A DNA stretch of 64,000 nt from a virus (Duplodnaviria; Heunggongvirae; Uroviricota; Caudoviricetes). The notes beneath the pieces were generated by a model. The model was not told the DNA's origin. It saw only the letters and a program-made list of their open reading frames with translations, and ran no database searches. Made by a program: the position numbers and the translations under genes. This document shows, one piece after another, positions 2,977-55,999 of this stretch (positions are counted from its first letter, which is position 1; each line of letters begins with the position of its first letter). Where the stretch lies: IMG/VR virus record IMGVR_UViG_3300031758_000002; one strand, 5' to 3'.

Positions 2977-3167
2977 TTTTCTTCTTTCTTATTGTTTGTT
3001 AAAATTTTTATTGTTTCGTTTCCCATTATTCCAAAGATCCCTACCATACCAACGAAACCTAAAAGTTGGAGGAACCCGTTAACATTTCTACTTACGACAT
3101 ACTCACCGTAAAGTGATGCGATGACAATAAATGTCAACCACATCAAAAATAATTTAAAATATTTCAT
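2973..3167 (-). CDS. small membrane protein (64 aa, 2 TM)
   Basis: Two hydrophobic helices. 4-bp overlap with the SPFH gene. Confidence 0.4.
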   Translation of the reverse strand: MKYFKLFLMWLTFIVIASLYGEYVVSRNVNGFLQLLGFVGMVGIFGIMGNETIKILTNNKKEEK

Positions 3168-3212
3168 ACTGATTTTTTTATATTGATTACAATACTACTA
3201 AAAAAATTTGAA

Positions 3213-5139: not shown

Positions 5140-5398
5140 TCATAATTTTATCTGTGAATACATTTTCATTAACATCGTGTTTACCAAGGTTATAAGAAAC
5201 ATAAGTCTTGTCCTCATAATAAACACGAATCATAAGGAACCCTAATTCTGAAATATACACTGTTTCAATTTCACCAACACCCTTTGGTGTGTTAATCTTT
5301 GGATTCTTCATTTCACAAATATAATAAAAATTTTTAATTCTCAAACATATCTTCACACCAAATTGGTGTTTTTTCTCCAACATAGGATCCACTAACAT
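5126..5398 (-). CDS. hypothetical protein (90 aa)
   Basis: ORF. Confidence 0.3.
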   Translation of the reverse strand: MLVDPMLEKKHQFGVKICLRIKNFYYICEMKNPKINTPKGVGEIETVYISELGFLMIRVYYEDKTYVSYNLGKHDVNENVFTDKIMNDVR

Positions 5399-8024: not shown

Positions 8025-8235
8025 ATTCTTTAATTATTTTTTCAATTTCTTCCATTGTGAACCATATCTTATGTTCACTTTCGTGTACCTCACGAAAATA
8101 CTCAATTAATTCTTCAACATTCATTACATATTTTTTTTGTGTTTAAAAAAATACGCAATTAATAAAACTAATGATGTATATAATACAAACAACAATAATC
8201 CCATATCACAAATATAATAATTTTTTTTATATAAA

Positions 8236-8265
8236 ACAAACCCCCAACTTACATTGGGGGTTTTA
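8236..8265 (-). terminator. rho-independent terminator (CCCCCAA-loop-TTGGGGG), bidirectional-looking
   Basis: Plus strand reads AAAACAAACCCCCAACTTACATTGGGGGTTTTAT, downstream of the gene ending at 8445. Confidence 0.6.
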
Positions 8266-9158: not shown

Positions 9159-9199
9159 TTTGCAAATATAGTAAAAGACTTTAATTAAAACAAATTTAT

Positions 9200-11140: not shown

Positions 11141-12271
11141 TCAATGGGAGTCACCAACATTATTTTTCTCCCCATATATTAAATAATCAGGATTGATAAC
11201 CTTTGCAACTTTATGACGATCACCAGTCACAGATTTAACAACGATACCTTCGTGAGGAACTTTGGTTCCTTTTATAAAATTACCGAAGACATATTTATCT
11301 TGTTCTTCTTTACTCCAAGTTCCTTCATATAATACTTCAACTTGTGGGAGTTCCAAACAATCAAAATGAACGGTTTCTTCAAGGTGTGGTTGATAAACAC
11401 CATCAACTTCAACATCAAAACCAACAAACTTTATTTCCTCCAAACCATATTCATAGTTTTTTTGGATTCCTTTACCATAGATTTCCCCATAGATAGTAAG
11501 TCCTTGTTCCAAAGATTCAGGGTAATATGTATCCTTAACATGATCCCAAAGTTTTTTTCGTATGTCATATTTGTTGGCAACTTCTCTCCACACATCAGTA
11601 TCGTAGAATCCTTGAGAATCAGATCCTTTCTCCACATTATGAGAACCATACACATATTCAAACTCAACCCACTCATTACCGAAGAACTTTTTCACTCTAT
11701 CCCACAAAGAAAGTTTTTTCTTTCTAACTATTCCAAATCTGGCATTAGTTCCGTGTATTTTACGGGTGATAACAACCTCATCTTCTTCGGTGAACATATC
11801 AGGAACATTCTTCATGTTTGGGAATTTGTGATAGATATGGAAGTTTGGATTTTGGTGGTATCTAACTTTCTTACCTCCACCCAAAGTAACCATTTTAACC
11901 GGTGGTTCGTATTTGGTTATTCCAAGTATTTCCATCATATCATCACCTTCATTAACATTGTTCACCAATGATTTTGGTGCCAAGTACTTGAATGGTATTA
12001 ACAAACATTCGGAATAAAATCCACGAAGTTTTACGGTTCTAACTCGTTGTCCTTTACGAAGGTAGTTAGTCACTTCCATCAAGTCAGACAATGCTTGTGG
12101 TATTACCGCATCAGTGGTTGCAACAACAACTTTATCTCCTTCTTGGTATTCACCTTTTTTGGTTATCGCCTGCCATCCACCAACAAGTACAAGTTCTATG
12201 TTGTCAGCATTTGGTATTTCAACTACTGAACCTATTTTTCCAACATATGCTACGCTATTTTGATTTTCCAT
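11141..12271 (-). CDS. ATP-dependent RNA ligase, Rnl2/Rnl5-like, with N-terminal extension (OB fold by analogy to Rnl5)
   Basis: Nucleotidyltransferase motif I ITRKIHGTNARFG (KxHGxN as in T4 Rnl2 EKIHGTN) at about residue 172. An N-terminal module of about 130 aa precedes it. Total 376 aa, similar to DraRnl/NgrRnl. Confidence 0.7.
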   Translation of the reverse strand: MENQNSVAYVGKIGSVVEIPNADNIELVLVGGWQAITKKGEYQEGDKVVVATTDAVIPQALSDLMEVTNYLRKGQRVRTVKLRGFYSECLLIPFKYLAPKSLVNNVNEGDDMMEILGITKYEPPVKMVTLGGGKKVRYHQNPNFHIYHKFPNMKNVPDMFTEEDEVVITRKIHGTNARFGIVRKKKLSLWDRVKKFFGNEWVEFEYVYGSHNVEKGSDSQGFYDTDVWREVANKYDIRKKLWDHVKDTYYPESLEQGLTIYGEIYGKGIQKNYEYGLEEIKFVGFDVEVDGVYQPHLEETVHFDCLELPQVEVLYEGTWSKEEQDKYVFGNFIKGTKVPHEGIVVKSVTGDRHKVAKVINPDYLIYGEKNNVGDSH

Positions 12272-15552: not shown

Positions 15553-15743
15553 ACCACAAATATAAGAATTATTTTTTAATATGACAAAAAATAAACAACA
15601 TTAAAACGATTGTTGATCATCGGACGTTATATGAAATATTTAAAAAATTTCATTTGCGTTTAAAATAATAATCTCTTATCAGTATTTGAAATATATTACC
15701 TAAACAAAATCCTATAAATCCTATTAAAATTAGTAGTTCCATA

Positions 15744-15956: not shown

Positions 15957-16128
15957 AACACTCCAATTTTTTATCCGTTACATTCCACAAATCTTTTTTT
16001 CCTTCCGTCATATGACAATTGTGTTTCTTACCGGTTCTCTCAGCAAAATCAACAATCATATCATTATGACGATTACGGACGATATGAGGACATTCTTTAC
16101 AGGGTTTTTTCATAACACAAATATACAA
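15937..16128 (-). CDS. small Cys/His-rich protein (63 aa)
   Basis: KKPCKECPH...HNCH, a possible zinc finger. Confidence 0.3.
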   Translation of the reverse strand: MYICVMKKPCKECPHIVRNRHNDMIVDFAERTGKKHNCHMTEGKKDLWNVTDKKLECYGIKVK

Positions 16129-16151
16129 ATTACTTTTTAATAAAACAAAAA

Positions 16152-17188: not shown

Positions 17189-17226
17189 TTTACAAATTTA
17201 TTAATAAATATCTGATTAAACAAAAA

Positions 17227-22067: not shown

Positions 22068-22343
22068 TTACTTTGTTATTAATGCCTCGATTTTACTTTT
22101 GATTGGTTCAACCATATCAATGTCTTTAGTTCCTGTCACAATAATGGAATCTTTCAAGAATCGGAATGGGATGTTAATTAAGAATGTATCTCCGTTGAAG
22201 AATCTTAAATCATTCTCAAGTTCCAAACACCCGTGAACCATCTTCAAAAAAATTTTGAATTGTGTCTCATCAATAAATACTTCGTTTAGTAACTCTCCAA
22301 ACGATTCGTTAATAATTCTGATTTTAAATGCCGTCTTATTCAT
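22068..22343 (-). CDS. hypothetical protein (91 aa)
   Basis: ORF. Confidence 0.3.
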   Translation of the reverse strand: MNKTAFKIRIINESFGELLNEVFIDETQFKIFLKMVHGCLELENDLRFFNGDTFLINIPFRFLKDSIIVTGTKDIDMVEPIKSKIEALITK

Positions 22344-22360
22344 ACCTCAAAGATATTAAA

Positions 22361-22738
22361 TTATTTCTCAATAACAAATTTTCTACCCACTTTTTTTAAT
22401 TTTCCAACAAGATCGTTTTCGTGATGAATCCCACTATAAAACCCTGAACCATCATTCCACATACCAAACTTGTTGTTTTTGTAAACATTCTCACCATCAA
22501 AAGTGATATAGTCAGGTTGTTCACCTTTTGGAAGTTTTGTTGCTCTAATCATCTCACGATTCTCAACCGCTGTGTAGTTGTTACTGTAATCGGCTCTACA
22601 AAGGTATGTTGCTTCTCCAACAACAACTTTCTCTCCGTTGAGAGTTGCGTTCTTATTAAATTTTTTCTTGTAAGTGTAAATGTAAGTCCCCATATGTTTT
22701 TTATTTCTACAAATATACAAATAAAAATGATACGGCAT
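22361..22738 (-). CDS. hypothetical protein (125 aa)
   Basis: ORF. Confidence 0.3.
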   Translation of the reverse strand: MPYHFYLYICRNKKHMGTYIYTYKKKFNKNATLNGEKVVVGEATYLCRADYSNNYTAVENREMIRATKLPKGEQPDYITFDGENVYKNNKFGMWNDGSGFYSGIHHENDLVGKLKKVGRKFVIEK

Positions 22739-25066: not shown

Positions 25067-25127
25067 AAATACCTTTCAGATCCAAAATGTAAATACCATT
25101 TGTCTTATTGTTTAAAAATTCTTATGT

Positions 25128-25472
25128 TTGTATAAATCTTTAAAACTTAAAAATATGAAACAGAAATTTAATGAATTCGTGGAAAGGTATAAACCTTTAT
25201 TTAGAAATGTGGTAGTTGTGTCGTTTATTGTGGTTTCGTTGTTTGCGGGATTTTACGCAGGTTCAGCATATAATAACGAATATGGTCCAAAGAAACCAAC
25301 CATCCATATGGTTAAAGTTAATCGTAGTCAGGTTAACTTAGCATTAGATGAACATAACCATCTAATTATCATTGACAAGAAAACTGGTGATTACACAGTT
25401 TATCAAGATTCAATCGGTGTTTCGGTGTTTAAACTATACGCTAGAAATATTTTCTCAGACACATCAAAATAA
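25128..25472 (+). CDS. membrane protein (114 aa, 1 TM)
   Basis: N-terminal TM helix VVVVSFIVVSLFAGFYAG. Confidence 0.35.
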   Translation: MYKSLKLKNMKQKFNEFVERYKPLFRNVVVVSFIVVSLFAGFYAGSAYNNEYGPKKPTIHMVKVNRSQVNLALDEHNHLIIIDKKTGDYTVYQDSIGVSVFKLYARNIFSDTSK

Positions 25473-36665: not shown

Positions 36666-36732
36666 AATGTTTTGGTTTTAATTACATCACAAAGATAGTA
36701 ATTAATTTGTAATTGCCAAATACGAAATGAAA

Positions 36733-38938: not shown

Positions 38939-39778
38939 TTAATAATTCAGTATAAGTAATTCTTCACCCATATTTTGTTTGGTACCTTTTTTGGCTGCCG
39001 CCGCCTTAGCGAATTCTTTTTTCTCCCAACTATATTGTTCTTTAGGGAACCATTCCGATAACAACGGGAAGTCATAATACGACAAACTAAATTTACCTTC
39101 CATTCCTTTTAATATATTTGCAAGTCTTTCATGATCTTCTCTGTCAAAATCGTGATTTGAATAGTAATTTTCAGTTTTCCAATATGGTGGATCAACATAA
39201 AAATATGTTGTTGGTGAATCATACTTTTTAATGACATCCTCAAAATCCATATTTTCAACATCCGTAATTTTCAAGAAATGTTCTACCCAATCAGGTTTAG
39301 ATAATTTATCTCTAAATGTAAGATACTTTGATTTGTATTTACCTTTCAAGTCAATGAATGAACTTGTCTCAGGTTTAGAACCACTAAAAACCTGTGTAAG
39401 GACATAAGCGTATTTAGCAGCAACTTCATAATTACCAGGTTCTACACTGAAACCTTCACTAAAAATTTCAGCCTGAAACCTGATAAACTGTTCTTTATAA
39501 ATTGGTGGAGTTACTTCTACACCAAATTTCTGACAATCAATTGCGTTAATTGCATTCAATAATTCAGTTGGGTTCTGAATACATTTAAACAGATTGTAAT
39601 TAAGTGGATTAAAGTCGTTATAAACAACTTTCTTTAGGTTTGGGAACTGTTTTAAGTCCATGTTGAAGAAACACCAAAACATCCCTCCGAATGTTTCAAC
39701 ATATGTTTCCATATTATTATCATAGAAAGGGACTATCCACTTTCCAATTTTACTCTTACCTCCGATATAACTTAACAT
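38939..39778 (-). CDS. Dam-like DNA N6-adenine methyltransferase (D12 class)
   Basis: N-terminal SYIGGKSK (Y.GGK) and late YVDPPYW (DPPY). Confidence 0.75.
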   Translation of the reverse strand: MLSYIGGKSKIGKWIVPFYDNNMETYVETFGGMFWCFFNMDLKQFPNLKKVVYNDFNPLNYNLFKCIQNPTELLNAINAIDCQKFGVEVTPPIYKEQFIRFQAEIFSEGFSVEPGNYEVAAKYAYVLTQVFSGSKPETSSFIDLKGKYKSKYLTFRDKLSKPDWVEHFLKITDVENMDFEDVIKKYDSPTTYFYVDPPYWKTENYYSNHDFDREDHERLANILKGMEGKFSLSYYDFPLLSEWFPKEQYSWEKKEFAKAAAAKKGTKQNMGEELLILNY

Positions 39779-39812: not shown

Positions 39813-40001
39813 ATGAATATTTTTTTTAAAAAAGATTACAAAAGTTTTGGCAGAACCAAAAACTTCACTATCTTTGTATTGTTGATGTGGTTGAGTAATC
39901 AATATTATCAACAGGTTGTCAGAATCCTATTAAACAAACTGACCGCTAATGACTGGGTGAATCGGTCTGGGTTGATTACCTCAATTTTAGGAATGAAATA
40001 A
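39813..40001 (+). CDS. hypothetical protein (62 aa)
   Basis: ORF followed by terminator hairpin 40007-40030. Confidence 0.3.
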   Translation: MNIFFKKDYKSFGRTKNFTIFVLLMWLSNQYYQQVVRILLNKLTANDWVNRSGLITSILGMK

Positions 40002-40540: not shown

Positions 40541-40717
40541 ATGAAACAAGAAGTAGAACAATCAAAAAAAGAAGCAACACAAGTTACAGGATGTAGTCAA
40601 TGTAAAAAAGGTATGAGTAAAACACAATGGGGATTATTAATATTCTCATTATATATGTTTGGTGCCGGAATTTACGGTACCATCCAAATAATTAAAGATG
40701 TAATTTCTTTATTTTAA
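40541..40717 (+). CDS. small membrane protein (58 aa)
   Basis: Not in the track. MKQEVEQSKKEATQVTGCSQCKKGMSKTQWGLLIFSLYMFGAGIYGTIQIIKDVISLF has one TM helix. Confidence 0.3.
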   Translation: MKQEVEQSKKEATQVTGCSQCKKGMSKTQWGLLIFSLYMFGAGIYGTIQIIKDVISLF

Positions 40718-41643
40718 TCCCTTTCAAATCGGACATGCTGGTTAACCAACAAGTCACCTATCACTTCACCTTTAAACCCTTTTGATTTAACTCTTAAGGG
40801 TTTTGTTGTATCAAATGTCTTTGGGAATCTTAACCTTACCGTACCGTCAGGATGAGGTATTTCAAAATCACTCTTCTTCAAATCATCCAATGTGAAATAA
40901 GCATTATAAATTAAGTGAGGTCCGTACTTTTCAAAATTATTATCAGAAACCAATTTAACTCTAACAACTAAGTTACCATAAACACCGTTTCTAAAATCCC
41001 CAACACCTTGTAATCGGATGAATTGTCCATCATCAATACCATTAGGTAATTTAACTTCAACAGTTTTCATCTCATCTTTAGTCCCACTACCATTACAAAT
41101 ATGACAAGGATTTGTAATAACTCGTCCATGTCCTGAACAAGTGTTACAAGCAACTTGTACCATTTGTATAAACATACCAGACCCCATCTGTCTCACTACA
41201 GAACCTTGTCCATTACATTCGGGACAAATTTTCTTCTCACCCCCACTACCATTACATGGATCACATTTTAATTTCCTACGATATGTGATTTCTTTATTCG
41301 CACCCAAATATGATTCAGTAACTTTTAATTCAGTATCAATAACTAAATCATGTACCACATTTTTTTGTCTACGATTACCAAATGCCTGATTAAACATCTG
41401 TTGGAATATATCGTCACCTCCTCCCATTCCTGCAAATGGGTTCTTTCTTCTCATATCATACTCTTGTCGTTTGTTATCGTCACCAATAGTATCATATGCT
41501 TCAGCAATTTGCTTAAACTTTTCCTCATCACCACCAGCATCAGGGTGATTTTCTTTTGCCAGTTTACGATATACTTTTTTTATCTCATCTTGGGTTGCAG
41601 TTTCAGGAACACCTAATATGTCGTAATAATTCGGAATATTCAT
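40714..41643 (-). CDS. dnaJ: DnaJ (Hsp40) co-chaperone, type I (J domain plus CxxCxGxG zinc-finger repeats)
   Basis: J domain NYYDILGV...AKENHPD (HPD tripeptide). Four CxxCxGxG repeats (CDPCNGSG, CPECNGQG, CNTCSGHG, CHICNGSG). C-terminal substrate-binding domain. Confidence 0.85.
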   Translation of the reverse strand: MNIPNYYDILGVPETATQDEIKKVYRKLAKENHPDAGGDEEKFKQIAEAYDTIGDDNKRQEYDMRRKNPFAGMGGGDDIFQQMFNQAFGNRRQKNVVHDLVIDTELKVTESYLGANKEITYRRKLKCDPCNGSGGEKKICPECNGQGSVVRQMGSGMFIQMVQVACNTCSGHGRVITNPCHICNGSGTKDEMKTVEVKLPNGIDDGQFIRLQGVGDFRNGVYGNLVVRVKLVSDNNFEKYGPHLIYNAYFTLDDLKKSDFEIPHPDGTVRLRFPKTFDTTKPLRVKSKGFKGEVIGDLLVNQHVRFERD

Positions 41644-41687: not shown

Positions 41688-42326
41688 ATGGACAATTTCA
41701 CAATTGTATTATTCAAAAATAAGGTAAAAAAGAAAATTATAAAGAAGTTTAAAACTAAAGTTAATGCTACAAAATATTATAAAAACTTAATAGAAGAAAA
41801 TAAAAATGTATTTTTTGGTGTTGAGACTGAGAATGGTAAAAAATGCGTCTACGAACTTGCATTAGTTTCAAAGATGGATGAGTCATCACCATATTTTGTT
41901 AGAGATGATTTTGGTAGAACAATAAAAATTGAACTTGAAGATCCAAACTATACTATAGTTGAAATTACTCCATATAGAAAAGAGGAACAACTATACGATA
42001 TTAAAAATAAAACTAAGATAGGTGTTGATAAGTTTATGAGGAAACATCTACCTAAAATTGGGGTTAAACTTTTATCGAAAATTAATAACAAAATTGTTAT
42101 CCAACATGACAGTGATATAAATCTATTTTCATTAAAGAGTGAAGATGATTGTGATAGATTTGTTGATGGTGTGTCTAATTATATGATTAATAAAGGTAGA
42201 ATTGATACTATTATTGTTAAAGATTCATCACCACAACAAAAGAAATACCTTTATGATTTATTATCCAGTAATGGTATTCCTAAATCGGTTTTATATAGAC
42301 GATTTACGACTTATAAAAGGGAATAG
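41688..42326 (+). CDS. hypothetical basic protein (212 aa)
   Basis: ORF, divergent from dnaJ. Confidence 0.4.
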   Translation: MDNFTIVLFKNKVKKKIIKKFKTKVNATKYYKNLIEENKNVFFGVETENGKKCVYELALVSKMDESSPYFVRDDFGRTIKIELEDPNYTIVEITPYRKEEQLYDIKNKTKIGVDKFMRKHLPKIGVKLLSKINNKIVIQHDSDINLFSLKSEDDCDRFVDGVSNYMINKGRIDTIIVKDSSPQQKKYLYDLLSSNGIPKSVLYRRFTTYKRE

Positions 42327-42605
42327 TCTCCCAATAAAACTCCTTTTTACAGGTGCTACATTTATTTTTGAGTCGTCGTATTGACCCTCCAAAATAAAAA
42401 CAACCTCAACTCCTGATATATCAATTTTAAATTTTTTATGTCCTTGATCGAGTTGTCTAAAATTTCCTAATACTTCTTTGAAGTCTCCCTCATTCAATTC
42501 AAAAACTATTACGGATTTACCTTTTGGGAACATTGATTGAGTGGCATCAGTTATTAATGCTAATTTTTCCATTATCCCATTAACATTTTTTTCAGTTTCT
42601 GCCAT
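42291..42605 (-). CDS. hypothetical protein (104 aa)
   Basis: ORF. Confidence 0.3.
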   Translation of the reverse strand: MAETEKNVNGIMEKLALITDATQSMFPKGKSVIVFELNEGDFKEVLGNFRQLDQGHKKFKIDISGVEVVFILEGQYDDSKINVAPVKRSFIGRLFPFISRKSSI

Positions 42606-42716
42606 ATTGTTAGTTTAACTTTATTCGTATTTTTTTGAACTATGTCTTCTTTTTTAAAATTTTTAATCTCATTTAGAAATTTTATTTTTTCAAGTTCAAG
42701 TTCTTTCTTATCTTTA

Positions 42717-43163
42717 TTAATCTCGTTCTTCAACCAATCCTGCATCCCTTCCAGTTGGCTCAGTGGTTTCTTCGTCATCTTCTAATTCAATTTTAGGATC
42801 ATTTATGTCAAATTTCAAAGCTTGTAGACTATTTAAATTTTGTTTTTCAAAAATCGCTTTCAACTCATTTACCTTGTGTTGGAATAACCTGTCTTTTTCT
42901 TCTCTTTCTTTATTGTAAGAGATGACATTTTTAATACTATCAATTAATTGGTTTGTTGAGGTTTCATTAAACTCAGCAACAAATGAGAAGAACCTATAAC
43001 CTGTTGTTGTTTTTTCATTCTCCATTACAGATTTCTCATTAACATATTTTTTAGGTAACTTCCATGTTTCAGGAAATTCAATGTCAAAAGATAAATAATT
43101 TTTAATTTTCCTAACTGATTGTAAGTAAGGAAATAGTATACTGAATTCTTCAAATAATCCCAT
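42717..43163 (-). CDS. hypothetical protein (148 aa)
   Basis: ORF. Confidence 0.35.
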   Translation of the reverse strand: MGLFEEFSILFPYLQSVRKIKNYLSFDIEFPETWKLPKKYVNEKSVMENEKTTTGYRFFSFVAEFNETSTNQLIDSIKNVISYNKEREEKDRLFQHKVNELKAIFEKQNLNSLQALKFDINDPKIELEDDEETTEPTGRDAGLVEERD

Positions 43164-43354
43164 TAATTTGATTGTATTAAATATGTTATGATGTAAGATA
43201 TGAATAAACCTAAATAAATAGTTTCCCTACTACTCATCACAAATTTTTTCGGTTCAGATTGTAGTAGGGAAACAGTAAATCTAAAAACAATTCTAAATAC
43301 TGCAATTAGTGAGAACACAAATACAAAAAGATATATAGTATTTATGTTAGTCAT
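43163..43354 (-). CDS. small membrane protein (63 aa)
   Basis: Two hydrophobic helices. Confidence 0.3.
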   Translation of the reverse strand: MTNINTIYLFVFVFSLIAVFRIVFRFTVSLLQSEPKKFVMSSRETIYLGLFISYIITYLIQSN

Positions 43355-43355
43355 A

Positions 43356-43529
43356 TTACGCAGCTTTTTTAGATTCTAGAATTTCACCTCTTAATTGTTG
43401 TAATAAAGATTTTAATTCTTGGGAAGTCTTTCTTGCTCTAGTTCCCGCACTTTTATTACCACTGTTGAACTTCGTTACATCAACACTAAGTTCCTCTGTA
43501 AGTGCTTTAATTTTTTCTAATGTTTCCAT
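43356..43529 (-). CDS. histone H1-like (Hc1-type) DNA-binding protein, 57 aa
   Basis: Not in the track. METLEKIKALTEELSVDVTKFNSGNKSAGTRARKTSQELKSLLQQLRGEILESKKAA. The GNK(A/S)AGTR(A/V)RK core is characteristic of Bacteroidota/Chlamydia Hc1 proteins. Confidence 0.55.
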   Translation of the reverse strand: METLEKIKALTEELSVDVTKFNSGNKSAGTRARKTSQELKSLLQQLRGEILESKKAA

Positions 43530-43595
43530 TTTGTTAATTAAAAAAAGTTTATTTATATTATCATAAATCTAAATTAGTTAACTCTAATGTCAATA

Positions 43596-44066
43596 TTATA
43601 CTGACATATTTTTATCTAATGATTTATATATACTTGATATCATATCCAAATCAGATTTTGTAAAAGGTTTTTTCCTGTCGAATAAGTCGTTAAAGAATGT
43701 TCCTATTGAACTTTTTATTTTGTTCTCCTTTTGATTATAGAATATGTCAGTGAAGAATGATAAGAAATACTCATAATGATCCCCTTTTTTATTAAAAGTA
43801 ATTTCTTCTTTTTGAAAGTTCTCAATTGTTTTATTCCAACACCATTCAAAATGTTTTAAATTATCTTCATCAGATAATACTATTTTGGTTTCACTATTTT
43901 TGTCGTCACCCAAATATGTGTCTAAAATCAAATAGTATAATGAAAAACTAAAGTCATAATATAAATCCATTTTTTCAGGTATTATATTATTAACTCTAAA
44001 CCATATGTCCACATCATCGGGATCCATTGGTTTTGCTATATAATTAAAAAAATTCTCCATAGACAA
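43596..44066 (-). CDS. hypothetical protein (156 aa)
   Basis: ORF. Confidence 0.35.
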   Translation of the reverse strand: MSMENFFNYIAKPMDPDDVDIWFRVNNIIPEKMDLYYDFSFSLYYLILDTYLGDDKNSETKIVLSDEDNLKHFEWCWNKTIENFQKEEITFNKKGDHYEYFLSFFTDIFYNQKENKIKSSIGTFFNDLFDRKKPFTKSDLDMISSIYKSLDKNMSV

Positions 44067-44107: not shown

Positions 44108-45457
44108 TTATTGTGTCTTATCTTGATAACCAATCAACGACTTCATTCTATCGAACTCCTCATTAAGTTTTTCAATTTTTTTGTTTTCAACTGATTCAAG
44201 TTTCATCATAACTTTACTTGCTTTATCTGTTTCATTACCTGTTTTATCTGAAACTACTGGTTGTACAGATTTATTATATGCCTTTCTTTTTAGTTTACCA
44301 AGTAAATTATCTTTTCTTATTTTGTTTCTTTTCTTGTTTGTTGGTGTTTCAACCGCATTTGCCCATTCAGGGTTATTACCCGTTCTAGATGAACCTTCAA
44401 TGTTATCTGTCATCCAATCCTCATTTGGAGCTATCCCATCATTGAAGTCTAAGTTTTCTAATGCTGCGGCGGTAAAGTTATCTACATAATCCTGTACAGC
44501 ATTTGATGGTACATAAGCCATTTTTTCCATTTTTTCAATTTCACCATTACCCATAGGAAAATGTTTAGGATTCATTTCATACTTACCTTTAGATCCGTCT
44601 TTAAGATAATCTTTCATTTTCTTCTCAAAACTTTTCATATAGTCATCTTCTTCTTTTCCCGAACCTTTATGTGACTTTTCATATGCCATATACCCTGCAG
44701 GTGTTTTACCTGTTTTAATCGTATTTTTTGTTTTACTTTCTTCTTTAATAATACCCTCAATAATATCTATTATTTCATCTTCAGTAAACAATGCGGTTTC
44801 ATTAATGTATTCTAATTTATATAAAACACCATTATCATTTTGTCTTTTACTTTCTTTAACAGTATATTTTTTACCATCAACAGAAAAATGAGATTTACCT
44901 TCTTTTTTAGCATTGGCAAGAGCTCCTGAAAATGCGTTGCCTTCTTCCATTTCCGTATTTTTTCCTTTTTTTCTAAGTAATCTAAAATCTTCCGAATCTA
45001 TTCTTCCATTTTTGTTTTTATCCAAACGAGATTGTTTACCATGAAGTCTTTCATCGATTTCACCTCTATTATCATTATATTCTTTTTGATCATAATATGA
45101 TTGACATCTTTCAGGATCCATATCGTAATATTGAGCACAGTATTCTTCCATATCAAATCCTGGCATAGTCCATTCAGAATCTTGTCTTGATAATTCCTTT
45201 TTTTCGTTAGGGAATTTACCTCCTTTGGATGTAACATACCTACTTTCTTTCATCTCTTCATTCATGTATCCACATTCCATACATTCACCTTCTTTCATTT
45301 CACCTCCACATTCACAAGTTTCTCCTTCTTGGACATAGTCAAACGATTTCCCTGGAGGATTAAATTTTAATTTTTCCATTATCTCATCAGCCTTTCCTTC
45401 TAAAGTTTCGGTTAGAACTTTTCTAAATAAATTATCGTAATAAGTGTTACTTTTCAT
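44108..45457 (-). CDS. K/E-rich hypothetical protein with N-terminal Cys cluster (449 aa)
   Basis: CECGGEMKEGECMECG, and one EF-hand-like loop DKNKNGRIDSED. Confidence 0.4.
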   Translation of the reverse strand: MKSNTYYDNLFRKVLTETLEGKADEIMEKLKFNPPGKSFDYVQEGETCECGGEMKEGECMECGYMNEEMKESRYVTSKGGKFPNEKKELSRQDSEWTMPGFDMEEYCAQYYDMDPERCQSYYDQKEYNDNRGEIDERLHGKQSRLDKNKNGRIDSEDFRLLRKKGKNTEMEEGNAFSGALANAKKEGKSHFSVDGKKYTVKESKRQNDNGVLYKLEYINETALFTEDEIIDIIEGIIKEESKTKNTIKTGKTPAGYMAYEKSHKGSGKEEDDYMKSFEKKMKDYLKDGSKGKYEMNPKHFPMGNGEIEKMEKMAYVPSNAVQDYVDNFTAAALENLDFNDGIAPNEDWMTDNIEGSSRTGNNPEWANAVETPTNKKRNKIRKDNLLGKLKRKAYNKSVQPVVSDKTGNETDKASKVMMKLESVENKKIEKLNEEFDRMKSLIGYQDKTQ

Positions 45458-50080: not shown

Positions 50081-50582
50081 AGTTTTGTTTAAATGATTTG
50101 TCTGCCCAAGTTTTTGCTCCCATTCTACCCCAAAGTTCCATGTCACACATATCAGGGAATGACTCTCTCATTGTCCCAACAGTTAACACATCCAAGAACC
50201 CTTTGTCGATTGAGTACCACTTACCACCTTTAATTGTGTAAACATTCATCCACTGTCCGTACTCATTTTTTGCTTGGATATTAACCAATGAGTTTTTTTG
50301 GTATCCACGAATAACACTCGCCGCAGTTCCTTTAGTGTCGTGGATATTGATGAATCCTGCCTGACATTTATTTGCGATACGGAATTCGTATTCTTTGTCC
50401 GCATCTTTAAGGTGGTTTGAAACCGAAACTGAAATTCTTTTACCTTTTACTGTGGTGTTGAATGATCCGTAGAATACGTCTCCTGATAATGTTCCTTCGT
50501 TTACTTTGATGATGTCGTTTGTCATAATATTTCGTTTTAGATACATTACAAATGTAATGATCTTTTTTAAACCACCAAACAA
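50079..50582 (-). CDS. hypothetical protein (167 aa)
   Basis: ORF. Confidence 0.35.
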   Translation of the reverse strand: MFGGLKKIITFVMYLKRNIMTNDIIKVNEGTLSGDVFYGSFNTTVKGKRISVSVSNHLKDADKEYEFRIANKCQAGFINIHDTKGTAASVIRGYQKNSLVNIQAKNEYGQWMNVYTIKGGKWYSIDKGFLDVLTVGTMRESFPDMCDMELWGRMGAKTWADKSFKQN

Positions 50583-50599: not shown

Positions 50600-51400
50600 T
50601 TAGATATAATCAAATAATTCAGAACTCTCATTTCGTAACCTTCTCAAAGCTCTTTCTTTAATCTGTCTTACTCGTTCTTTAGTTAAACCAAAATCACCTC
50701 CAATATCTTCCAAAGTTCTTGGTGTTCCACTAAGTCCAAAATAATCCTCAATAATTACTCGTTCTCTTTCATCTAAAACACTAAGTGTATTGATTAATTT
50801 TTCTTTAAGAATGTCCGCAGTATTAAAAGCCGCATCAGGAGCGTCTGCATCCATATTTGGTATCATATCAAGGAATGTATCTCCCTCATCATTGATATTC
50901 ATATCTAAGTCAATCATTGATGGTAAAGATGAGAATTTATCCGATAGTTTTCCTCCATTATTCTCAATTTCTTTTTTAGCTTTATGAAGTTCCTGAACAA
51001 CATTTACAGGAAGTCTAATTGTTCTCGCATTGTCATTTAAAGACTGAATAATAGATTGTTTAACCCACCAAACGGCATATGAAATAAATCTCAAATTTTT
51101 ACTCCAATCAAAGTTTTTAATTGCTTTCAATAACCCTAAGTTACCCTCAGCAACCAAATCAGGAAAATCCAAACCTTGATTTTGATATTGTTTTGCAACG
51201 GTAATAACAAATCGTAAATTACCTGTTAACAACTCCTGTTCAACTTGTTTTCGTTGTTTGTCAGTTAAAGTATCCGACATCATAAGTTTAGATAATTCTT
51301 TTTCCCTTTCAGGTGTCATAACTTTAATCTTCCTAATATCCTTTAGGTAGTGAGAGATTTCATCCTGATTAATGGGCATTCCTGTTCCTTTTTCCTTCAT
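50600..51400 (-). CDS. sigma-70 family RNA polymerase sigma factor (regions 2-4)
   Basis: Region 2 LRFVITVAKQYQNQGLDFPDLVAEGNLGLLKAIKNFD. Region 2.4/3 RFISYAVWWVKQSI. Region 4 HTH TLEDIGGDFGLTKERVRQIKERALRRLR. Confidence 0.8.
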   Translation of the reverse strand: MKEKGTGMPINQDEISHYLKDIRKIKVMTPEREKELSKLMMSDTLTDKQRKQVEQELLTGNLRFVITVAKQYQNQGLDFPDLVAEGNLGLLKAIKNFDWSKNLRFISYAVWWVKQSIIQSLNDNARTIRLPVNVVQELHKAKKEIENNGGKLSDKFSSLPSMIDLDMNINDEGDTFLDMIPNMDADAPDAAFNTADILKEKLINTLSVLDERERVIIEDYFGLSGTPRTLEDIGGDFGLTKERVRQIKERALRRLRNESSELFDYI

Positions 51401-51405
51401 ATATT

Positions 51406-51966
51406 TTATTTTGAGTATTGTTCCAATTTTAATTTCTCCGCCTTTGTGAGTGAATTTATTCCCTTGTCATTGATTTTATCTAAAAGTTCGTCCAATGACA
51501 TATTACACACATCTTCATTTGTTTTATTGATAATAAATGGACTACCTTGATTAATCATATCCATAAACATATCAAAAATCGCACCATCATTACTAATATC
51601 TTCAGAACTAACAGTGAAAGTATTAATCTCAATCTTATCCTCCTCATCAATAGACAATAGGTGATTTTTTCTATCCTTACCCATATTTGTTGCCATCTTA
51701 CCATTAAATGGTATTAAGGTAAACATAATGTCTTCTAATTCTTCAAAAACCATCTCAACATACATAGACATTTCTTCATATTTTAACTCAGATTCAAAAT
51801 GAAAAATTGCGTTACCATCACCATAAATGTATTTTATCTGTTCTGAAATTACAATGGGTTGGATTTCTTTACCAATTTTAGTGGTTAAGGCTTCACTATC
51901 CATAGTTTCACTTTCACCGTACACAAACATTAGATATCTCATATTGTTTTTTTTACAAATATACAA
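51406..51966 (-). CDS. hypothetical acidic protein (186 aa)
   Basis: ORF. Confidence 0.35.
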   Translation of the reverse strand: MYICKKNNMRYLMFVYGESETMDSEALTTKIGKEIQPIVISEQIKYIYGDGNAIFHFESELKYEEMSMYVEMVFEELEDIMFTLIPFNGKMATNMGKDRKNHLLSIDEEDKIEINTFTVSSEDISNDGAIFDMFMDMINQGSPFIINKTNEDVCNMSLDELLDKINDKGINSLTKAEKLKLEQYSK

Positions 51967-51973
51967 ATAATTA

Positions 51974-52885
51974 TTAATCCAACAAATTTTTAGATTCTTT
52001 ATTATTTTTTCTTTTCAATAAAGCATCTTCTTTAGATAAAAGGAATTTAACCTTTGGATTAGGTGTTTCATTAGTGTATGGTTCAATATTTTGTATTCTT
52101 AGATTTGATAAATCGACATATTCTTCATTGATGTCAATACCCAAATAATTCCTGTTATTAAGTTTCGCCATCTTCAATGTCGTTCCACTACCACACATAG
52201 GATCTAATACTATATCACCTTCATTACTCCAAGATAGAATATGATCCTCAGCCAATGATTCCGGAAATATTGCAGGATGTTGGAATGCAATGTCGTCTTT
52301 GGATGAGAACCCTTTACCATTATTAACATACCATACATTATACCTTGTACCGAATTCAGATACAACAAACTTGTCAACCTTTTTAAGGTTTCCGTCTTTT
52401 TCTCTTTTTGATGGATCACCAAAATTACTATGTCCCGCCCATCTATTTGGTTTATCTTTTAATAGATTAACCGTTTTTGGTTTCCCTTTTGAAAGGACGA
52501 ACATATATTCAAATACTTGTGAGTATCTACCTGTTTCAGGAAATGGGGCTCCATTCTTATGATAAATCATCGTATCGTACAATGTAAATCCAATCTCCTT
52601 AAATTTAAGTGCTTGTCTGAATGAACTACCAGTTTCTCCACCATTTTTTACTTGATCATTTACCACCCAAATAACAACACCACCCTTCTTGGTTACTCTA
52701 TATAACTCACGAGCCATTTCCACAAATGGGAAACTAAATCCATCTTCAAAGACAACCTCATCCTTAATTTTTCCATTATAAGTTCTTAAGTTATCATACG
52801 GTGGTGATGTTACAGTTAAATCAAATGTATTATCCTCATATCTTTGTAATACTTCAATCGCATTACCTAAAATTACTTCATTCAT
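51974..52885 (-). CDS. DNA methyltransferase, beta-class N6-adenine/N4-cytosine
   Basis: Motif IV DLTVTSPPYDN precedes motif I IVLDPMCGSGTTLKMAKLNNRNYLGIDIN. Confidence 0.8.
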   Translation of the reverse strand: MNEVILGNAIEVLQRYEDNTFDLTVTSPPYDNLRTYNGKIKDEVVFEDGFSFPFVEMARELYRVTKKGGVVIWVVNDQVKNGGETGSSFRQALKFKEIGFTLYDTMIYHKNGAPFPETGRYSQVFEYMFVLSKGKPKTVNLLKDKPNRWAGHSNFGDPSKREKDGNLKKVDKFVVSEFGTRYNVWYVNNGKGFSSKDDIAFQHPAIFPESLAEDHILSWSNEGDIVLDPMCGSGTTLKMAKLNNRNYLGIDINEEYVDLSNLRIQNIEPYTNETPNPKVKFLLSKEDALLKRKNNKESKNLLD

Positions 52886-53623: not shown

Positions 53624-55999
53624 TTATTGATATACCTTTGAAATATTATCTTCTTTTCTAATCTTAACGATGGTGTCCGCCCACTGATTAACCATTGGGT
53701 TGTGTGTAATGACAAATATTTTCTCAAAATATTCTTTAATTTTAATAAAGAATTCTGAAACCATTTCCAAATTGTCGTTAGATATTTTTCCGAACACCTC
53801 ATCAAAGACAATTATATTTGGTTTTGGTAACGAACAAATCTTACTTAATACTGATCTCAATGCCAATGATGCAATTGTTTTTTCATAACCTGAACCTGAT
53901 GTCATTAATTTCTCAACACCAGTACCGTTGTCAATCATCATAAACTCAACTTCATTCTTATCGTTAATTCTAACTTCAAGTTTGAAGTATGAACTATCCT
54001 CCATTAGTCTTTGAAGTTCTGAGTTTATTATCGGCATCATAGTTTTCATTATGATTTTAGATATCCCATTTTTACCGAACGCCTCCAAATATATTTTATA
54101 TAATTTTTCTTTTTCAGATTCCTCCTGAATTTTGATTATTGTATTTAAATTATTTTTAATCTTATCTTCCAACGAGGTGATTTGGTAAGTATTATTATTG
54201 ATTAGTGTTTGTTTTTGAGTCTTTTCTCTTTCAAGTTCCTCAATTCTAATACCTGCTTTTAACAACATACCCTCAATCTTCTCATTTTCCTTAATTTTTT
54301 CAATCAATTCGTTATACCTTCCTAATTTTTGTTTTAAATTTTCAATTTTAAGATTATAACTCTCAATACTCAAATCATATTTTTCTTTAATAAGTTTGTT
54401 TTTCTCATACTCATCAAACTCTTTTTTAAGTTGTACAAATGCCTGTTCTTTGCCTGATAAAACCGTCATTAACCCCTCTTTTTCCTCTTTTTGCCTATTA
54501 TAACCATCAAGTTCGGCAATTTTAGATTGGGTGATTGATGCCATCATTAAATCAATACCACAGTGTTCGCATTTAATTCCACCATCAACGGAACTCTTTA
54601 ATTCCTCAATTGATTTAATCTTACTCTCAACTTGGATTTTTTCCTTGAATACTTCGTTATATTCTTCTTTAACCTTATCGTGTTGATCCTCATAATAAAA
54701 AGAAGATGGTTCAACTACCTGTAATTCATTTGACTTCTTAATGATGTCACCTTTTTGATACTCAAATGAGTTAATCTCATCTTGTACCTTATCAGGGTTT
54801 GTTTGAGCAATATCATTATCTATATCAGTATGTTTCTTTTTTAACATATCGTCACGATAATCCTTACCCTTTGTTAAGTTTACTTCAACTTGATTAAGTT
54901 CGTCTTTCAATGTATCAATACTAGTTTTAAAATTTTCAATATCAGTTTCATATTGTTCATTATCACTTTTTAATTGCTCAGTATTATAAACATTAGATAA
55001 CATTGATTTAGAAAAATCAGAATAAATTTGTTTTGCAGATTCTTCTTTTTTCTTTAAAAACTCCAACCCCATAAACCTTGAGAGTACCTGTCCTCTTGCC
55101 GTTGGTTTTGATTCCAAAAGGTCCTCAAGATTTGTTGCGGTGGTTAAAATTGTCATTAAGAAATCATCTTTAGAACCGATTGATGTTTTAATGAATTGTT
55201 CGGTTTCTCGTCTTTGTTCACCAGTAAAGTTTTGTAAACTACCGTCGGAAAGTTTTTTGAAGAAGTCTAATTCGGTTTTAACATTCCATTCACCTTTCTT
55301 AGACATTTTTCTTTCGATGTTTCTAACAATAATATATTCTTCACCATCAATAATAATTTCACCCTTTACAACTACCGAGTTTTTATCGGTAAATCGATTA
55401 AAGATTTCTTCCGCCTTTGATGTTTTTGTTGTCTCATTAAAGAATAGGAACATTAATAAATCCACCGATAATACTGTCTTACCACCAAAGTTAGGTGGAT
55501 TAGATTCAACTACTGTAATACCATTACATTTATCAAAATCAATACGCTGATTATCACCATATGATAAGAAATTAGAGAATTCAATATTTTTGATATACCA
55601 TTTCTTAAATGATGAGGTTTCATCTTCTGATTCAGACATTTTATTCTCAACCATTCTATTGATTGACATAACCTCATCAATACGATTTTCATACCCCTTA
55701 GACTTAAGAAATTGTTTCAACAAATCAGTTTGATAATTTGTGTCCATAATGTTTACAGACACATCAACACTTTGCATAGTATCTTCCTGAATGTTTTTAA
55801 CTTTTGTGATAACATTCACATTAGTGGAACCGTACTTCTTTTGGAAGTAATGTTTAACACTCTTAATCTTATCTTGTGTGAAATTCTCTGAAATGTCTTC
55901 CCATACTACTTGAATAGGTGGGTTTTCAAATTTAGAAAACTCTAAATCTTTTATCATAATTTTATAATTAAATGTTTTTGGTGGATTAAACAGATCCAT
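53624..55999 (-). CDS. SbcC/Rad50-like recombination ATPase (T4 gp46-like) with about 130-aa N-terminal extension
   Basis: N-terminal strand IKNIEFSNFLSYG and degenerate P-loop NFGGKT. Central long coiled coils. CEHCG hook-like CxxC. C-terminal signature SGYEKTIASLALRS and Walker B IIVFDEV. Confidence 0.65.
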   Translation of the reverse strand: MDLFNPPKTFNYKIMIKDLEFSKFENPPIQVVWEDISENFTQDKIKSVKHYFQKKYGSTNVNVITKVKNIQEDTMQSVDVSVNIMDTNYQTDLLKQFLKSKGYENRIDEVMSINRMVENKMSESEDETSSFKKWYIKNIEFSNFLSYGDNQRIDFDKCNGITVVESNPPNFGGKTVLSVDLLMFLFFNETTKTSKAEEIFNRFTDKNSVVVKGEIIIDGEEYIIVRNIERKMSKKGEWNVKTELDFFKKLSDGSLQNFTGEQRRETEQFIKTSIGSKDDFLMTILTTATNLEDLLESKPTARGQVLSRFMGLEFLKKKEESAKQIYSDFSKSMLSNVYNTEQLKSDNEQYETDIENFKTSIDTLKDELNQVEVNLTKGKDYRDDMLKKKHTDIDNDIAQTNPDKVQDEINSFEYQKGDIIKKSNELQVVEPSSFYYEDQHDKVKEEYNEVFKEKIQVESKIKSIEELKSSVDGGIKCEHCGIDLMMASITQSKIAELDGYNRQKEEKEGLMTVLSGKEQAFVQLKKEFDEYEKNKLIKEKYDLSIESYNLKIENLKQKLGRYNELIEKIKENEKIEGMLLKAGIRIEELEREKTQKQTLINNNTYQITSLEDKIKNNLNTIIKIQEESEKEKLYKIYLEAFGKNGISKIIMKTMMPIINSELQRLMEDSSYFKLEVRINDKNEVEFMMIDNGTGVEKLMTSGSGYEKTIASLALRSVLSKICSLPKPNIIVFDEVFGKISNDNLEMVSEFFIKIKEYFEKIFVITHNPMVNQWADTIVKIRKEDNISKVYQ

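What the first reader, a model, noticed from the sequence alone, without database searches (positions are those of the whole stretch)
43356..43529. Unannotated 57-aa histone H1-like (Hc1-type) gene
An ORF below the track's 60-aa cutoff, in a 240-bp gap, encodes METLEKIKALTEEL...FNSGNKSAGTRARKTSQELKSLLQQLRGEI. The GNKxAGTRxRK core matches the Hc1 / Bacteroidota histone H1-like family. A phage-encoded nucleoid protein could compact phage DNA or remodel the host nucleoid. It also points to a Bacteroidota host.
Basis: partly seen in the sequence, partly recalled or inferred. Interest (0 to 1): 0.65.

Follow-up and report, generated by a model that had tools for sequence, protein, structure and literature searches.

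The report
Jumbo-phage Hc1-domain small basic protein
The 57-codon ORF is a real, strongly conserved gene for a small basic helical-hairpin protein of the bacterial "Hc1" family, carried by freshwater jumbo phages of Bacteroidota; the same family was already reported in such phages, and the protein lacks the part of chlamydial Hc1 that is known to bind DNA, so "histone" is a name, not a shown function.

Summary
The ORF at 43356-43529 (minus strand) is real. It matches Pfam PF07432 (Hc1) end to end (E 6.5e-21, 74 bits against a cutoff of 23.5). Among 49 phage alleles dN/dS is about 0.11. It keeps the same neighbours in all 80 related viral contigs examined and is the best-conserved protein of that block (84% against 44-62%). 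The identical protein is already on 62 public contigs (longest 312 kb) with PF07432 precomputed. A 2025 paper on aquatic jumbo "moraphages" (Bacteroidota hosts, DnaJ, sigma factor) already reports PF07432 proteins. The novelty is therefore low.

- The protein is only the conserved N-terminal domain of chlamydial Hc1, to which the literature assigns dimerisation. The lysine-rich DNA-binding tail is absent.
- The predicted fold is a two-helix hairpin (pLDDT 96), not a linker-histone winged helix.
- Hc1 alone does not identify the host, because a cyanophage and Planctomycetota also carry the domain. A Bacteroidota host is nevertheless supported independently, by canonical Bacteroidota promoters and near-absent Shine-Dalgarno sites.

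The most likely function is a dimeric small protein that binds nucleic acid through its invariant basic helix 2. This is inferred, not shown.

The parts
43356..43529 (-). Coding sequence (57 aa plus stop) of a stand-alone Hc1-domain (PF07432) protein. Predicted acidic helix 1 (residues 2-22), turn S23-G24-N25, basic helix 2 (residues 26-56) that opens with the invariant K-S-A-G-T-R-A-R-K.
   Evidence: ORF. Pfam E 6.5e-21 over model positions 1-56 of 57. dN/dS about 0.11. AF2 pLDDT 96.3. Charge per helix and invariant columns.
43530..43595 (-). 66-bp upstream intergenic region with two blocks conserved across the phage lineage. Block 1 is TTGACA (43593-43588), 16 nt, TAGATT (43571-43566), a promoter-like pair. 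Block 2 is TATAAATAAAC (43557-43547), whose conserved core is WAATAAAC, about 25 nt before the ATG. There is no Shine-Dalgarno sequence.
   Evidence: Promoter scan. Alignment of 48 unique upstream sequences. TTKAC is present in 48 of 48, with TAnnTT at 15-19 nt in 31 of 48; AATAAA lies at about -24 in 47 of 48; the canonical Bacteroidota consensus occurs in 0 of 48. Its function as a promoter is inferred.
43163..43354 (-). Downstream 63-aa gene with two hydrophobic segments. Its ATG lies 1 nt after the Hc1 stop codon, so it is probably co-transcribed. It is part of the conserved block.
   Evidence: Sequence. Adjacent and co-oriented in 70 of 80 viral loci. No Pfam, PHROG or PADLOC hit.
43596..44066 (-). 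Upstream orphan gene (156 aa from a TTG start; 143 aa in most public gene calls, 154 aa in one). It is the conserved 5' neighbour of the Hc1-like gene.
   Evidence: Adjacent and co-oriented in 80 of 80 viral loci, median 62% identity. No family hit.
42717..43163 (-). 148-aa orphan gene, a conserved member of the same syntenic block.
   Evidence: Adjacent and co-oriented in 79 of 80 viral loci. No family hit.

Best explanation
The ORF is a real gene of a freshwater jumbo phage (about 300 kb, Bacteroidota host, moraphage-like). It encodes a stand-alone copy of the conserved N-terminal domain of the bacterial Hc1 family (PF07432). The protein folds as an antiparallel two-helix hairpin with an acidic helix 1 and a basic helix 2. 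The most likely mechanism is that hairpins pair into a small helical bundle, the role assigned to this domain in chlamydial Hc1. The invariant basic surface at the hairpin tip and along helix 2 (K26, R31, R33, K34, R47) would then contact the nucleic-acid backbone. That would make it a small architectural, nucleoid-associated-type protein acting inside the infected cell on phage or host DNA.

Shown: the gene is real and under strong constraint; it belongs to the family; it has the domain only; the fold is confidently predicted as a hairpin; it is fixed in the lineage with conserved synteny.

Inferred: dimerisation, nucleic-acid binding, the target (phage or host DNA), and expression from the conserved upstream promoter-like element.

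My confidence is about 0.95 for the identity of the gene and about 0.4 for the nucleic-acid-binding mechanism. The figure given here is for the mechanism.
For: - Family: PF07432 at 74.4 bits, E 6.5e-21, full length. There are 968 homologues, all with PF07432 precomputed among those listed.
- Constraint: dN/dS about 0.11 with saturated dS. It is the best-conserved protein of its block, 84% against 44-62% for neighbours, including DnaJ at 55%.
- Lineage: 284 relatives in IMG/VR; the best 80 are all at least 78% identical, on contigs up to 321 kb. The clade is monophyletic, 98% NJ bootstrap.
- Fold: helix 2-22, turn, helix 26-56, pLDDT 96.3. The nearest solved folds are dimerising hairpins and the rRNA-binding uL29 hairpin, none of them significant.
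- Charge: helix 1 is about -2 and helix 2 about +5 in phage and bacterial members alike. N25, A28, G29, T30, R31, R33, K34 and R47 are invariant across phyla.
- Literature: full-length Hc1 condenses DNA, and its conserved N-terminus mediates dimerisation (PMC2848022).
- Published context: PF07432 proteins occur in aquatic jumbo phages with DnaJ, a sigma factor and Bacteroidota hosts (PMC12619734).
Against: - In the only experimentally studied member, DNA binding is assigned to the Lys-rich C-terminal tail. That tail is absent here: the alignment covers only positions 5-58 of the 121-position HctA model.
- Net charge is only +2.5 and pI 9.5, which is modest for a DNA-coating protein.
- I found no experimental study of any short stand-alone PF07432 protein.
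- No solved structure exists, and the oligomeric state could not be modelled.
- No expression data are available.
Confidence: 0.4

Rival explanations
1. Protein-interaction module or mimic. The hairpin has no nucleic-acid role of its own. It acts through its dimerisation interface, for example by pairing with the host's own short Hc1-like protein (as a dominant-negative or a hijack of a host nucleoid factor), or by bridging other phage or host proteins.
For: - The literature assigns dimerisation, not DNA binding, to this domain.
- Bacteroidota, including Flavobacteriales, encode 57-63-aa homologues that are 42-55% identical.
- The hydrophobic core positions (L4, I7, L10, L14, V18, A28, A32, L39, L42, L43, L46) are conserved between the phage and bacterial forms.
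- The nearest solved folds include protein-binding hairpins such as the phage anti-activator Aqs1 and CDK2AP1.
Against: - The most conserved feature across all phyla is not the core but the basic, solvent-facing GNK-AGTRARK tip plus R47. That looks like a ligand site shared by hosts and phages.
- The phage clade is not close to the Flavobacteriia/Bacteroidia type, which a mimic of the current host's protein might be expected to track.
- No partner gene is conserved across phyla in the bacterial loci.
Confidence: 0.25
2. RNA-binding or translation regulator. The basic hairpin binds RNA (mRNA, rRNA or the ribosome) and modulates translation during infection.
For: - The moraphage paper's reference list includes Pedersen et al. 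1994, whose title states that Hc1's interaction with DNA and RNA represses transcription and translation in vitro.
- Ribosomal uL29 hairpins are among the closest solved folds: 6o8z_Z and 5ngm_AW, TM 0.72-0.86.
Against: - The fold matches are not significant: no hit reaches E<=1e-3.
- In Hc1, nucleic-acid binding in general is assigned to the missing tail.
- There is no Rfam- or context-level link to translation genes.
Confidence: 0.15
3. Late-expressed packaging or virion protein that neutralises charge and condenses the about 300-kb genome inside the capsid. This is the speculation offered for moraphages.
For: - It was suggested in PMC12619734.
- In the window the upstream block reads TATAAATA, the T4 late-promoter consensus as I know it from the literature.
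- The gene is fixed in a lineage with very large genomes.
Against: - The TATAAATA reading is not conserved; the consensus across relatives is WAATAAAC.
- The gene lies among small orphan genes, DnaJ, methyltransferases and a sigma factor, not among structural genes.
- A net charge of +2.5 per 57 residues makes it a poor polycation.
Confidence: 0.1
4. A chance ORF, or a decaying remnant with no function.
For: It is short and has no Shine-Dalgarno sequence. ORFs of 30-50 codons occur by chance throughout this AT-rich window.
Against: - Pfam E 6.5e-21.
- dN/dS about 0.11, with the third codon position variable in 57 of 61 columns.
- The start codon and length are conserved in 80 viral loci.
- Lack of Shine-Dalgarno sequences is the norm in this genome.
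Confidence: 0.01

Closest known systems
PF07432 'histone H1-like' proteins reported in moraphages (aquatic jumbo phages; Perez-Hernandez et al. 2025, Arch Virol, PMC12619734)
   Same: The Pfam family is the same. The setting also matches: freshwater jumbo phages of 200-307 kb, predicted Bacteroidota hosts, DnaJ chaperone, sigma factor, glutaredoxin, exonuclease subunit, and no function known (against window).
   Different: I could not compare sequences directly, because the moraphage genomes are only on Zenodo. Membership of the window in that lineage is therefore likely but unverified. The paper treats the protein as a linker-histone homologue. Here it is shown to be the Hc1 N-domain only, with a hairpin fold.
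Chlamydia trachomatis Hc1 / HctA (about 125 aa)
   Same: The N-terminal domain is homologous (PF07432). The query aligns to positions 5-58 of the NCBIfam HctA model.
   Different: The phage protein stops where the Lys/Ala-rich C-terminal tail of HctA begins. That tail is the part assigned to DNA binding and the basis of the 'H1-like' name. The score is 21 bits against the 100-bit equivalog cutoff.
Short stand-alone Hc1-domain proteins of Bacteroidota, Balneolota and Planctomycetota (57-63 aa; often annotated 'histone H1')
   Same: The length, the hairpin architecture, the acidic helix 1 and basic helix 2, and the invariant GNK(A/S/T)AGTRARK core are all shared.
   Different: Identity is only 36-59%. 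The phage copies form their own clade (98% bootstrap) with Ser at position 27 and a loop one residue shorter than the Bacteroidota, Balneolales and Chitinophagales forms. They share no neighbouring genes with the bacterial loci.
'Histone H1' of Synechococcus phage S-SRM01 (QPX48246.1, 62 aa) and Hc1-domain ORFs of huge phages LR756500, LR745206 and LR756502
   Same: These are phage-encoded PF07432-type hairpins in large genomes of 240-642 kb.
   Different: Identity is 35-54%. They branch separately from the window's clade, which implies independent acquisitions. LR745206 and LR756502 carry an insertion of 14-21 aa in helix 1, and the host of S-SRM01 is a cyanobacterium.
Eukaryotic linker histone H1/H5 (winged-helix globular domain, PF00538)
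   Same: Only the historical name. That name derives from the compositional similarity of the Hc1 tail to the H1 tail.
   Different: There is no Pfam match even at E<=10. The predicted fold is a two-helix hairpin, not a winged helix. The Lys-rich tail is absent.

Membership tests
Pfam PF07432 (Hc1 domain) | Score above the curated gathering threshold over the whole model | tested here: met
   74.4 bits against a cutoff of 23.5, E 6.5e-21, residues 1-55 on model positions 1-56 of 57.
Pfam PF07432 (Hc1 domain) | Conserved GNK-x-AGTR-x-RK core | tested here: met
   GNKSAGTRARK is present. N25, A28, G29, T30, R31, R33 and K34 are invariant in 44 phage and bacterial sequences.
Chlamydial HctA/Hc1 (NCBIfam NF051889 equivalog) | Full-length match above the equivalog cutoff | tested here: not met
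   21 bits against a cutoff of 100; only model positions 5-58 of 121 are aligned.
Chlamydial HctA/Hc1 (NCBIfam NF051889 equivalog) | Lys/Ala-rich C-terminal nucleic-acid-binding tail | tested here: not met
   The protein ends at residue 57, and no residues follow helix 2. Net charge is +2.5. The role of the tail is taken from PMC2848022 and PMC3469542.
Chlamydial HctA/Hc1 (NCBIfam NF051889 equivalog) | DNA condensation activity | not testable with these tools
   Needs biochemistry or expression with nucleoid imaging.
Eukaryotic linker histone H1/H5 | Winged-helix globular domain (PF00538) | tested here: not met
   No hit at E<=10. The AF2 model is a two-helix hairpin.
Moraphage lineage (PMC12619734) | Aquatic jumbo phage genome of about 200-307 kb | tested here: inconclusive
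   The identical protein lies on lake-metagenome contigs up to 311,818 bp, and relatives on IMG/VR contigs of 274-321 kb. This is at or slightly above the published range, and the completeness of these contigs is unknown.
Moraphage lineage (PMC12619734) | Gene content: DnaJ, sigma factor, glutaredoxin, exonuclease subunit 2, PF07432 protein | tested here: met
   DnaJ, sigma factor, glutaredoxin and thioredoxin on syntenic contigs, SbcC/gp46-like, PF07432.
Moraphage lineage (PMC12619734) | Placement inside the clade in MCP, TerL and PolB trees | not testable with these tools
   The reference genomes are only on Zenodo. The nearest records in the phage collection are distant, at most 26-30% identity for the nuclease subunit, and there is no megablast hit.
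Moraphage lineage (PMC12619734) | Bacteroidota host | tested here: met
   There are 13 TTTG-N17-21-TAnnTTTG sites against 4.57 +/- 2.05 in shuffles. Nine of them lie in sense just upstream of genes, and Shine-Dalgarno-like motifs occur in 3 of 108 genes. This is an inference from signal type, not a demonstrated host.

The most novel reading that the evidence does not exclude
The stand-alone Hc1 hairpin is a distinct, so far uncharacterised class of small chromatin or nucleoid protein. It would bind DNA through its invariant basic helix-2 surface without any Lys-rich tail. A whole lineage of jumbo phages of Bacteroidota would have fixed its own ancient copy as a near-essential factor, to organise its 300-kb genome or to silence the host nucleoid. 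This would also give the first function for the widespread 'histone H1' genes of Bacteroidota and Planctomycetota.
Probability: 0.2. Interest if true: 0.6.

Novelty: already known. Interest (0 to 1): 0.3.

Why it matters
As an annotation, this adds little. The identical protein and its Pfam assignment are already public, and the presence of PF07432 proteins in aquatic jumbo phages has been published.

What this analysis adds is a correction and a sharper question. The phage protein is the tail-less N-terminal domain of Hc1. It is a confidently predicted helical hairpin, unrelated in fold to linker histones. Arguments borrowed from chlamydial Hc1 or eukaryotic H1 (genome compaction) therefore do not transfer automatically.

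It is also the most conserved gene of its neighbourhood across a large phage lineage, more conserved than the phage DnaJ. It forms a phage-specific clade that is not a recent host capture. That makes it a good, cheap biochemical target: 57 residues, with an obvious R31/R33/K34 mutant. Such work could give the first function for a family widespread in Bacteroidota, Balneolota and Planctomycetota.

Tried and rejected
- Megablast of 7 kb around the gene against 50,697 phage records found no match. tblastn with the SbcC-like protein found only distant hits, so no cultured or deposited close relative could be used.
- PHROGs has no family for the protein, PADLOC has none, and the syntenic neighbours are orphans in Pfam, PHROGs and PADLOC.
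- PDB searches by sequence, by profile and by fold gave nothing significant. The BFVD fold search gave only sub-threshold hits, some already named 'Histone H1'.
- The primary papers on Hc1 domains (PMC177758, PMC1217221) are not held, so the domain assignments are cited second-hand from PMC2848022 and PMC3469542.
- Gene context in 71 bacterial loci shows only clade-level synteny and no partner conserved across phyla.
- I considered that the gene has a canonical Bacteroidota promoter and rejected it: 0 of 48 upstream sequences match the full consensus. The window's site is a near match (aTTG-N19-TAGATTTa).
- I considered a T4-type late promoter (TATAAATA) and rejected it as a lineage feature, because the conserved core is WAATAAAC. 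In the window that motif lies within 30 nt of a start codon for only 3 genes.
- Literature searches for work on the short bacterial forms, or on the S-SRM01 protein, found nothing.
- Caveats on my own computations. The NJ tree rests on about 57 columns. The dN/dS is a pairwise Nei-Gojobori estimate with near-saturated dS, so the ratio is approximate.

Full report
**Observation.** The minus strand of 43356..43529 carries an ATG-to-TAA ORF of 57 codons encoding METLEKIKALTEELSVDVTKFNSGNKSAGTRARKTSQELKSLLQQLRGEILESKKAA. It fills the 241-bp space between the flanking ORFs of at least 60 aa, 43163-43354 and 43596-44066. ORF length alone is not evidence in a window of 31% GC, so the case rests on what follows.

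**It is a real, constrained gene.**
- Pfam PF07432 (Hc1) matches residues 1-55 to model positions 1-56 of 57, at 74.4 bits against a gathering cutoff of 23.5 (E 6.5e-21).
- The large protein database holds 968 homologues. The 120 listed are 56-83 aa long and all carry PF07432.
- I extracted the orthologue from 80 IMG/VR loci and aligned 49 unique alleles by codon. Median pairwise dN is 0.17 and dS 1.44, giving dN/dS of about 0.11. Variable columns by codon position are 32, 23 and 57 of 61.
- The start codon and the length (56-60 aa) are conserved.
- No Shine-Dalgarno sequence precedes the ATG, but only 3 of the 108 window genes scanned have one.

**Where it lives.**
- The window is phage DNA. 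It encodes an RNA ligase (phrog_968, 3.5e-61), an SbcC/gp46-like nuclease subunit (phrog_77, 2.9e-41), a sigma-70-family factor (phrog_351, 4.5e-53) and a complete three-domain DnaJ.
- The identical 57-aa protein is recorded on 62 public contigs, the longest 311,818 bp. Gene callers there already predict it, with PF07432 precomputed.
- IMG/VR holds 284 relatives. The best 80 are all at least 78% identical, on contigs up to 321 kb.
- In all 80 of those loci the gene sits in the same co-oriented block: 156-aa orphan, Hc1-like gene, 63-aa two-segment hydrophobic protein, 148-aa orphan, with DnaJ within a few kb.
- It is the best-conserved protein of that block, at a median 84% identity against 44-62% for the others, DnaJ included.
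- The stop codon of the Hc1-like gene is 1 nt from the ATG of the 63-aa gene, so the two are probably co-transcribed.

**Already in the literature.** Perez-Hernandez et al. (Arch Virol 2025, PMC12619734) describe 'moraphages'. These are mostly freshwater jumbo phages of 200-307 kb with predicted Bacteroidota (Flavobacteriia) hosts. They have DnaJ/DnaK chaperones, a core sigma factor, glutaredoxin and exonuclease subunit 2, and they lack an RNA polymerase of their own. [quoted passage not shown] The window matches every gene-content item I could test. Their genomes are available only on Zenodo, so I could not confirm clade membership by sequence. In addition, the cultured cyanophage S-SRM01 has an annotated 62-aa 'histone H1', and BFVD contains viral hairpins named 'Histone H1'.

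**What the protein is and is not.**
- NCBIfam's HctA equivalog aligns the query only to model positions 5-58 of 121, and scores 21 bits against a cutoff of 100.
- The phage protein is therefore the N-domain alone. It ends at residue 57, with net charge +2.5 and pI 9.5.
- No linker-histone (PF00538) match appears even at E<=10.
- AlphaFold2 with a 32-sequence alignment gives a very confident model (pLDDT 96.3): helix 2-22, turn 23-25, helix 26-56.
- Foldseek finds no significant PDB neighbour. The nearest are generic antiparallel hairpins that act as dimerisation modules (CDK2AP1, SSV1 D-63, phage Aqs1, designed homo-oligomers) or as the rRNA-binding uL29.
- PDB sequence and profile searches are empty.
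- In both phage and bacterial members, helix 1 is acidic (about -2 to -3) and helix 2 basic (about +5).
- D17 is acidic in every sequence (D in 98%). N25, A28, G29, T30, R31, R33, K34 and R47 are invariant across the jumbo phages, other phages, Bacteroidota, Balneolota and Planctomycetota.
- Hydrophobic positions follow a heptad pattern with extra apolar residues (L10, L43, I50/L51). I read this as compatible with a dimer-of-hairpins bundle; that is an inference.

**Evolution and host.**
- Among one genome for each of 185,579 bacterial and archaeal species, the best match is only 59% identical (Balneolales). It is followed by Bacteroidota, Phycisphaerae/Planctomycetota and others at 36-55%, all short proteins.
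- None of those loci shares neighbours with the phage block, and the bacterial loci show no partner conserved across phyla.
- In an NJ tree the window's phage clade is monophyletic (98% of 200 bootstraps) and separate from four other groups:
  - the Bacteroidia/Flavobacteriia type;
  - the Balneolales/Chitinophagales type, with which huge phage LR756500 groups;
  - the Planctomycetota type;
  - the S-SRM01 cyanophage protein, and the LR745206/LR756502 proteins with their helix-1 insertion.
- Phages have therefore acquired the domain several times, and this lineage's copy is old rather than a recent host capture.
- Hc1 alone is thus a weak host marker. The Bacteroidota host is nevertheless supported independently. 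The pattern TTTG-N17-21-TAnnTTTG occurs 13 times against 4.57 +/- 2.05 in shuffles, and none of 100 shuffles reached 13. I know this pattern from the literature as the Bacteroidota -33/-7 promoter consensus. Nine of the sites lie in sense within 65 nt upstream of start codons, and Shine-Dalgarno usage is almost nil.

**Expression signals.** The 66-bp region upstream of the gene contains two blocks conserved in the lineage.
- The first is TTKAC, present in 48 of 48 unique sequences at about -61. In the window it reads TTGACA at 43593-43588. A TAnnTT follows 15-19 nt downstream in 31 of 48; in the window it is TAGATT at 43571-43566.
- The second is an AATAAA(C) block at about -24, present in 47 of 48. 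In the window it reads TATAAATAAAC at 43557-43547.
- None of the 48 matches the full canonical Bacteroidota consensus. The window's own site is one base off in each element.
- The conserved blocks are not a common motif elsewhere in the window.
- I therefore treat the region as a gene-specific promoter or leader of undetermined class.

**Mechanism.** I commit to the following reading, at about 0.4: a dimeric or oligomeric helical-hairpin protein that uses the invariant basic tip and helix-2 surface to bind nucleic acid, acting as a small architectural protein during infection. For it are the family's only studied member being a nucleoid condenser, the universally conserved exposed basic motif, and the strong constraint. 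Against it are the missing DNA-binding tail, the modest charge and the absence of any experiment on the short forms. The rivals are:
- a protein-interaction module or mimic of the host's Hc1-like protein (0.25);
- an RNA or translation regulator (0.15);
- a late packaging protein (0.1);
- a chance ORF (refuted).

**Verdict.** The family call is right and the host call is right, though for reasons other than those given. The 'histone/nucleoid' function is unproven and rests on the half of Hc1 that is absent here. The finding is already known at the annotation level. Interest is modest, and lies mainly in the protein being an easy and well-motivated biochemical target.

Noticed in passing
window 9163-9194, 15557-15588, 16118-16149, 17193-17224, 22348-22378, 25099-25130, 36690-36720, 50549-50579, 51956-51986 (also 5316-5345, 8209-8240, 22072-22101, 39846-39876): There are 13 exact TTTG-N17-21-TAnnTTTG sites (Bacteroidota-type -33/-7 promoter consensus) against 4.6 +/- 2.1 expected. 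Nine lie in sense 33-63 nt upstream of start codons, several leaving almost no leader. Only 3 of 108 genes have a Shine-Dalgarno-like motif. Together these mark a set of genes probably transcribed by host RNA polymerase, and they point to a Bacteroidota host.
   Followed up: partly
window 40714-41643 (-): Phage-encoded full-length DnaJ with the J domain, the CXXCXGXG zinc-finger domain and the C-terminal domain. It is conserved (median 55% identity) within about 5 kb of the Hc1-like gene in 79 of 80 related viral loci.
   Followed up: partly
window 50600-51400 (-): Sigma-70-family factor (phrog_351, E 4.5e-53; regions 2 and 4 on syntenic contigs). Its target promoters are unknown. It has a canonical Bacteroidota-type promoter just downstream of it, at 50549-50579, in front of the next gene.
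   Followed up: no
window 44108-45457 (-) and 44081-44052 (-): A 449-aa highly charged orphan protein with a Cys-rich N-terminal stretch and only a weak EF-hand-like hit. It is followed by the only terminator-like hairpin of the 2-kb region (13-bp stem plus T-run). This suggests a transcript boundary just upstream of the 156-aa / Hc1-like block.
   Followed up: no
window 51974-52885 (-) and 38939-39778 (-); L001-L006: By synteny with contigs that carry the identical Hc1-like protein, these 303-aa and 279-aa ORFs correspond to an N6/N4 DNA methyltransferase (PF01555) and a Dam-type methyltransferase (PF02086). A thioredoxin/glutaredoxin pair and a DUF932 protein lie further along. I did not scan the window's own ORFs directly.
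   Followed up: no
window 11141-12271 (-) and 53624-55999 (-): RNA ligase (phrog_968, E 3.5e-61) and an SbcC/gp46-like nuclease subunit (phrog_77, E 2.9e-41). The latter has only 26-30% identical relatives in the 50,697-record phage collection, so the lineage has no close deposited relative there.
   Followed up: partly
L160 (LR745206, 635 kb) 3001-3192 and L161 (LR756502, 642 kb) 3001-3213: Two huge phages encode Hc1-domain proteins of 71 and 78 aa, with a 14-21-residue insertion inside helix 1 and RIRK/RIRR in place of RARK. They appear to be a separate acquisition from the window's clade.
   Followed up: partly
L158 (Synechococcus phage S-SRM01) 4013-4201 and 7259-7693: The cultured cyanophage with an annotated 62-aa 'histone H1' also carries a Dps-like 'DNA starvation/stationary phase protection protein' about 3 kb away, so two nucleoid-type genes lie in one neighbourhood.
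   Followed up: no
window 42572-42778 / 42717-43163 and 42291-42605 / 42572-42778 (-): Successive small genes downstream of the block overlap by 62 and 34 nt. The same overlaps are called on the syntenic public contigs. Either true overlapping genes or mis-set starts could explain this.
   Followed up: no
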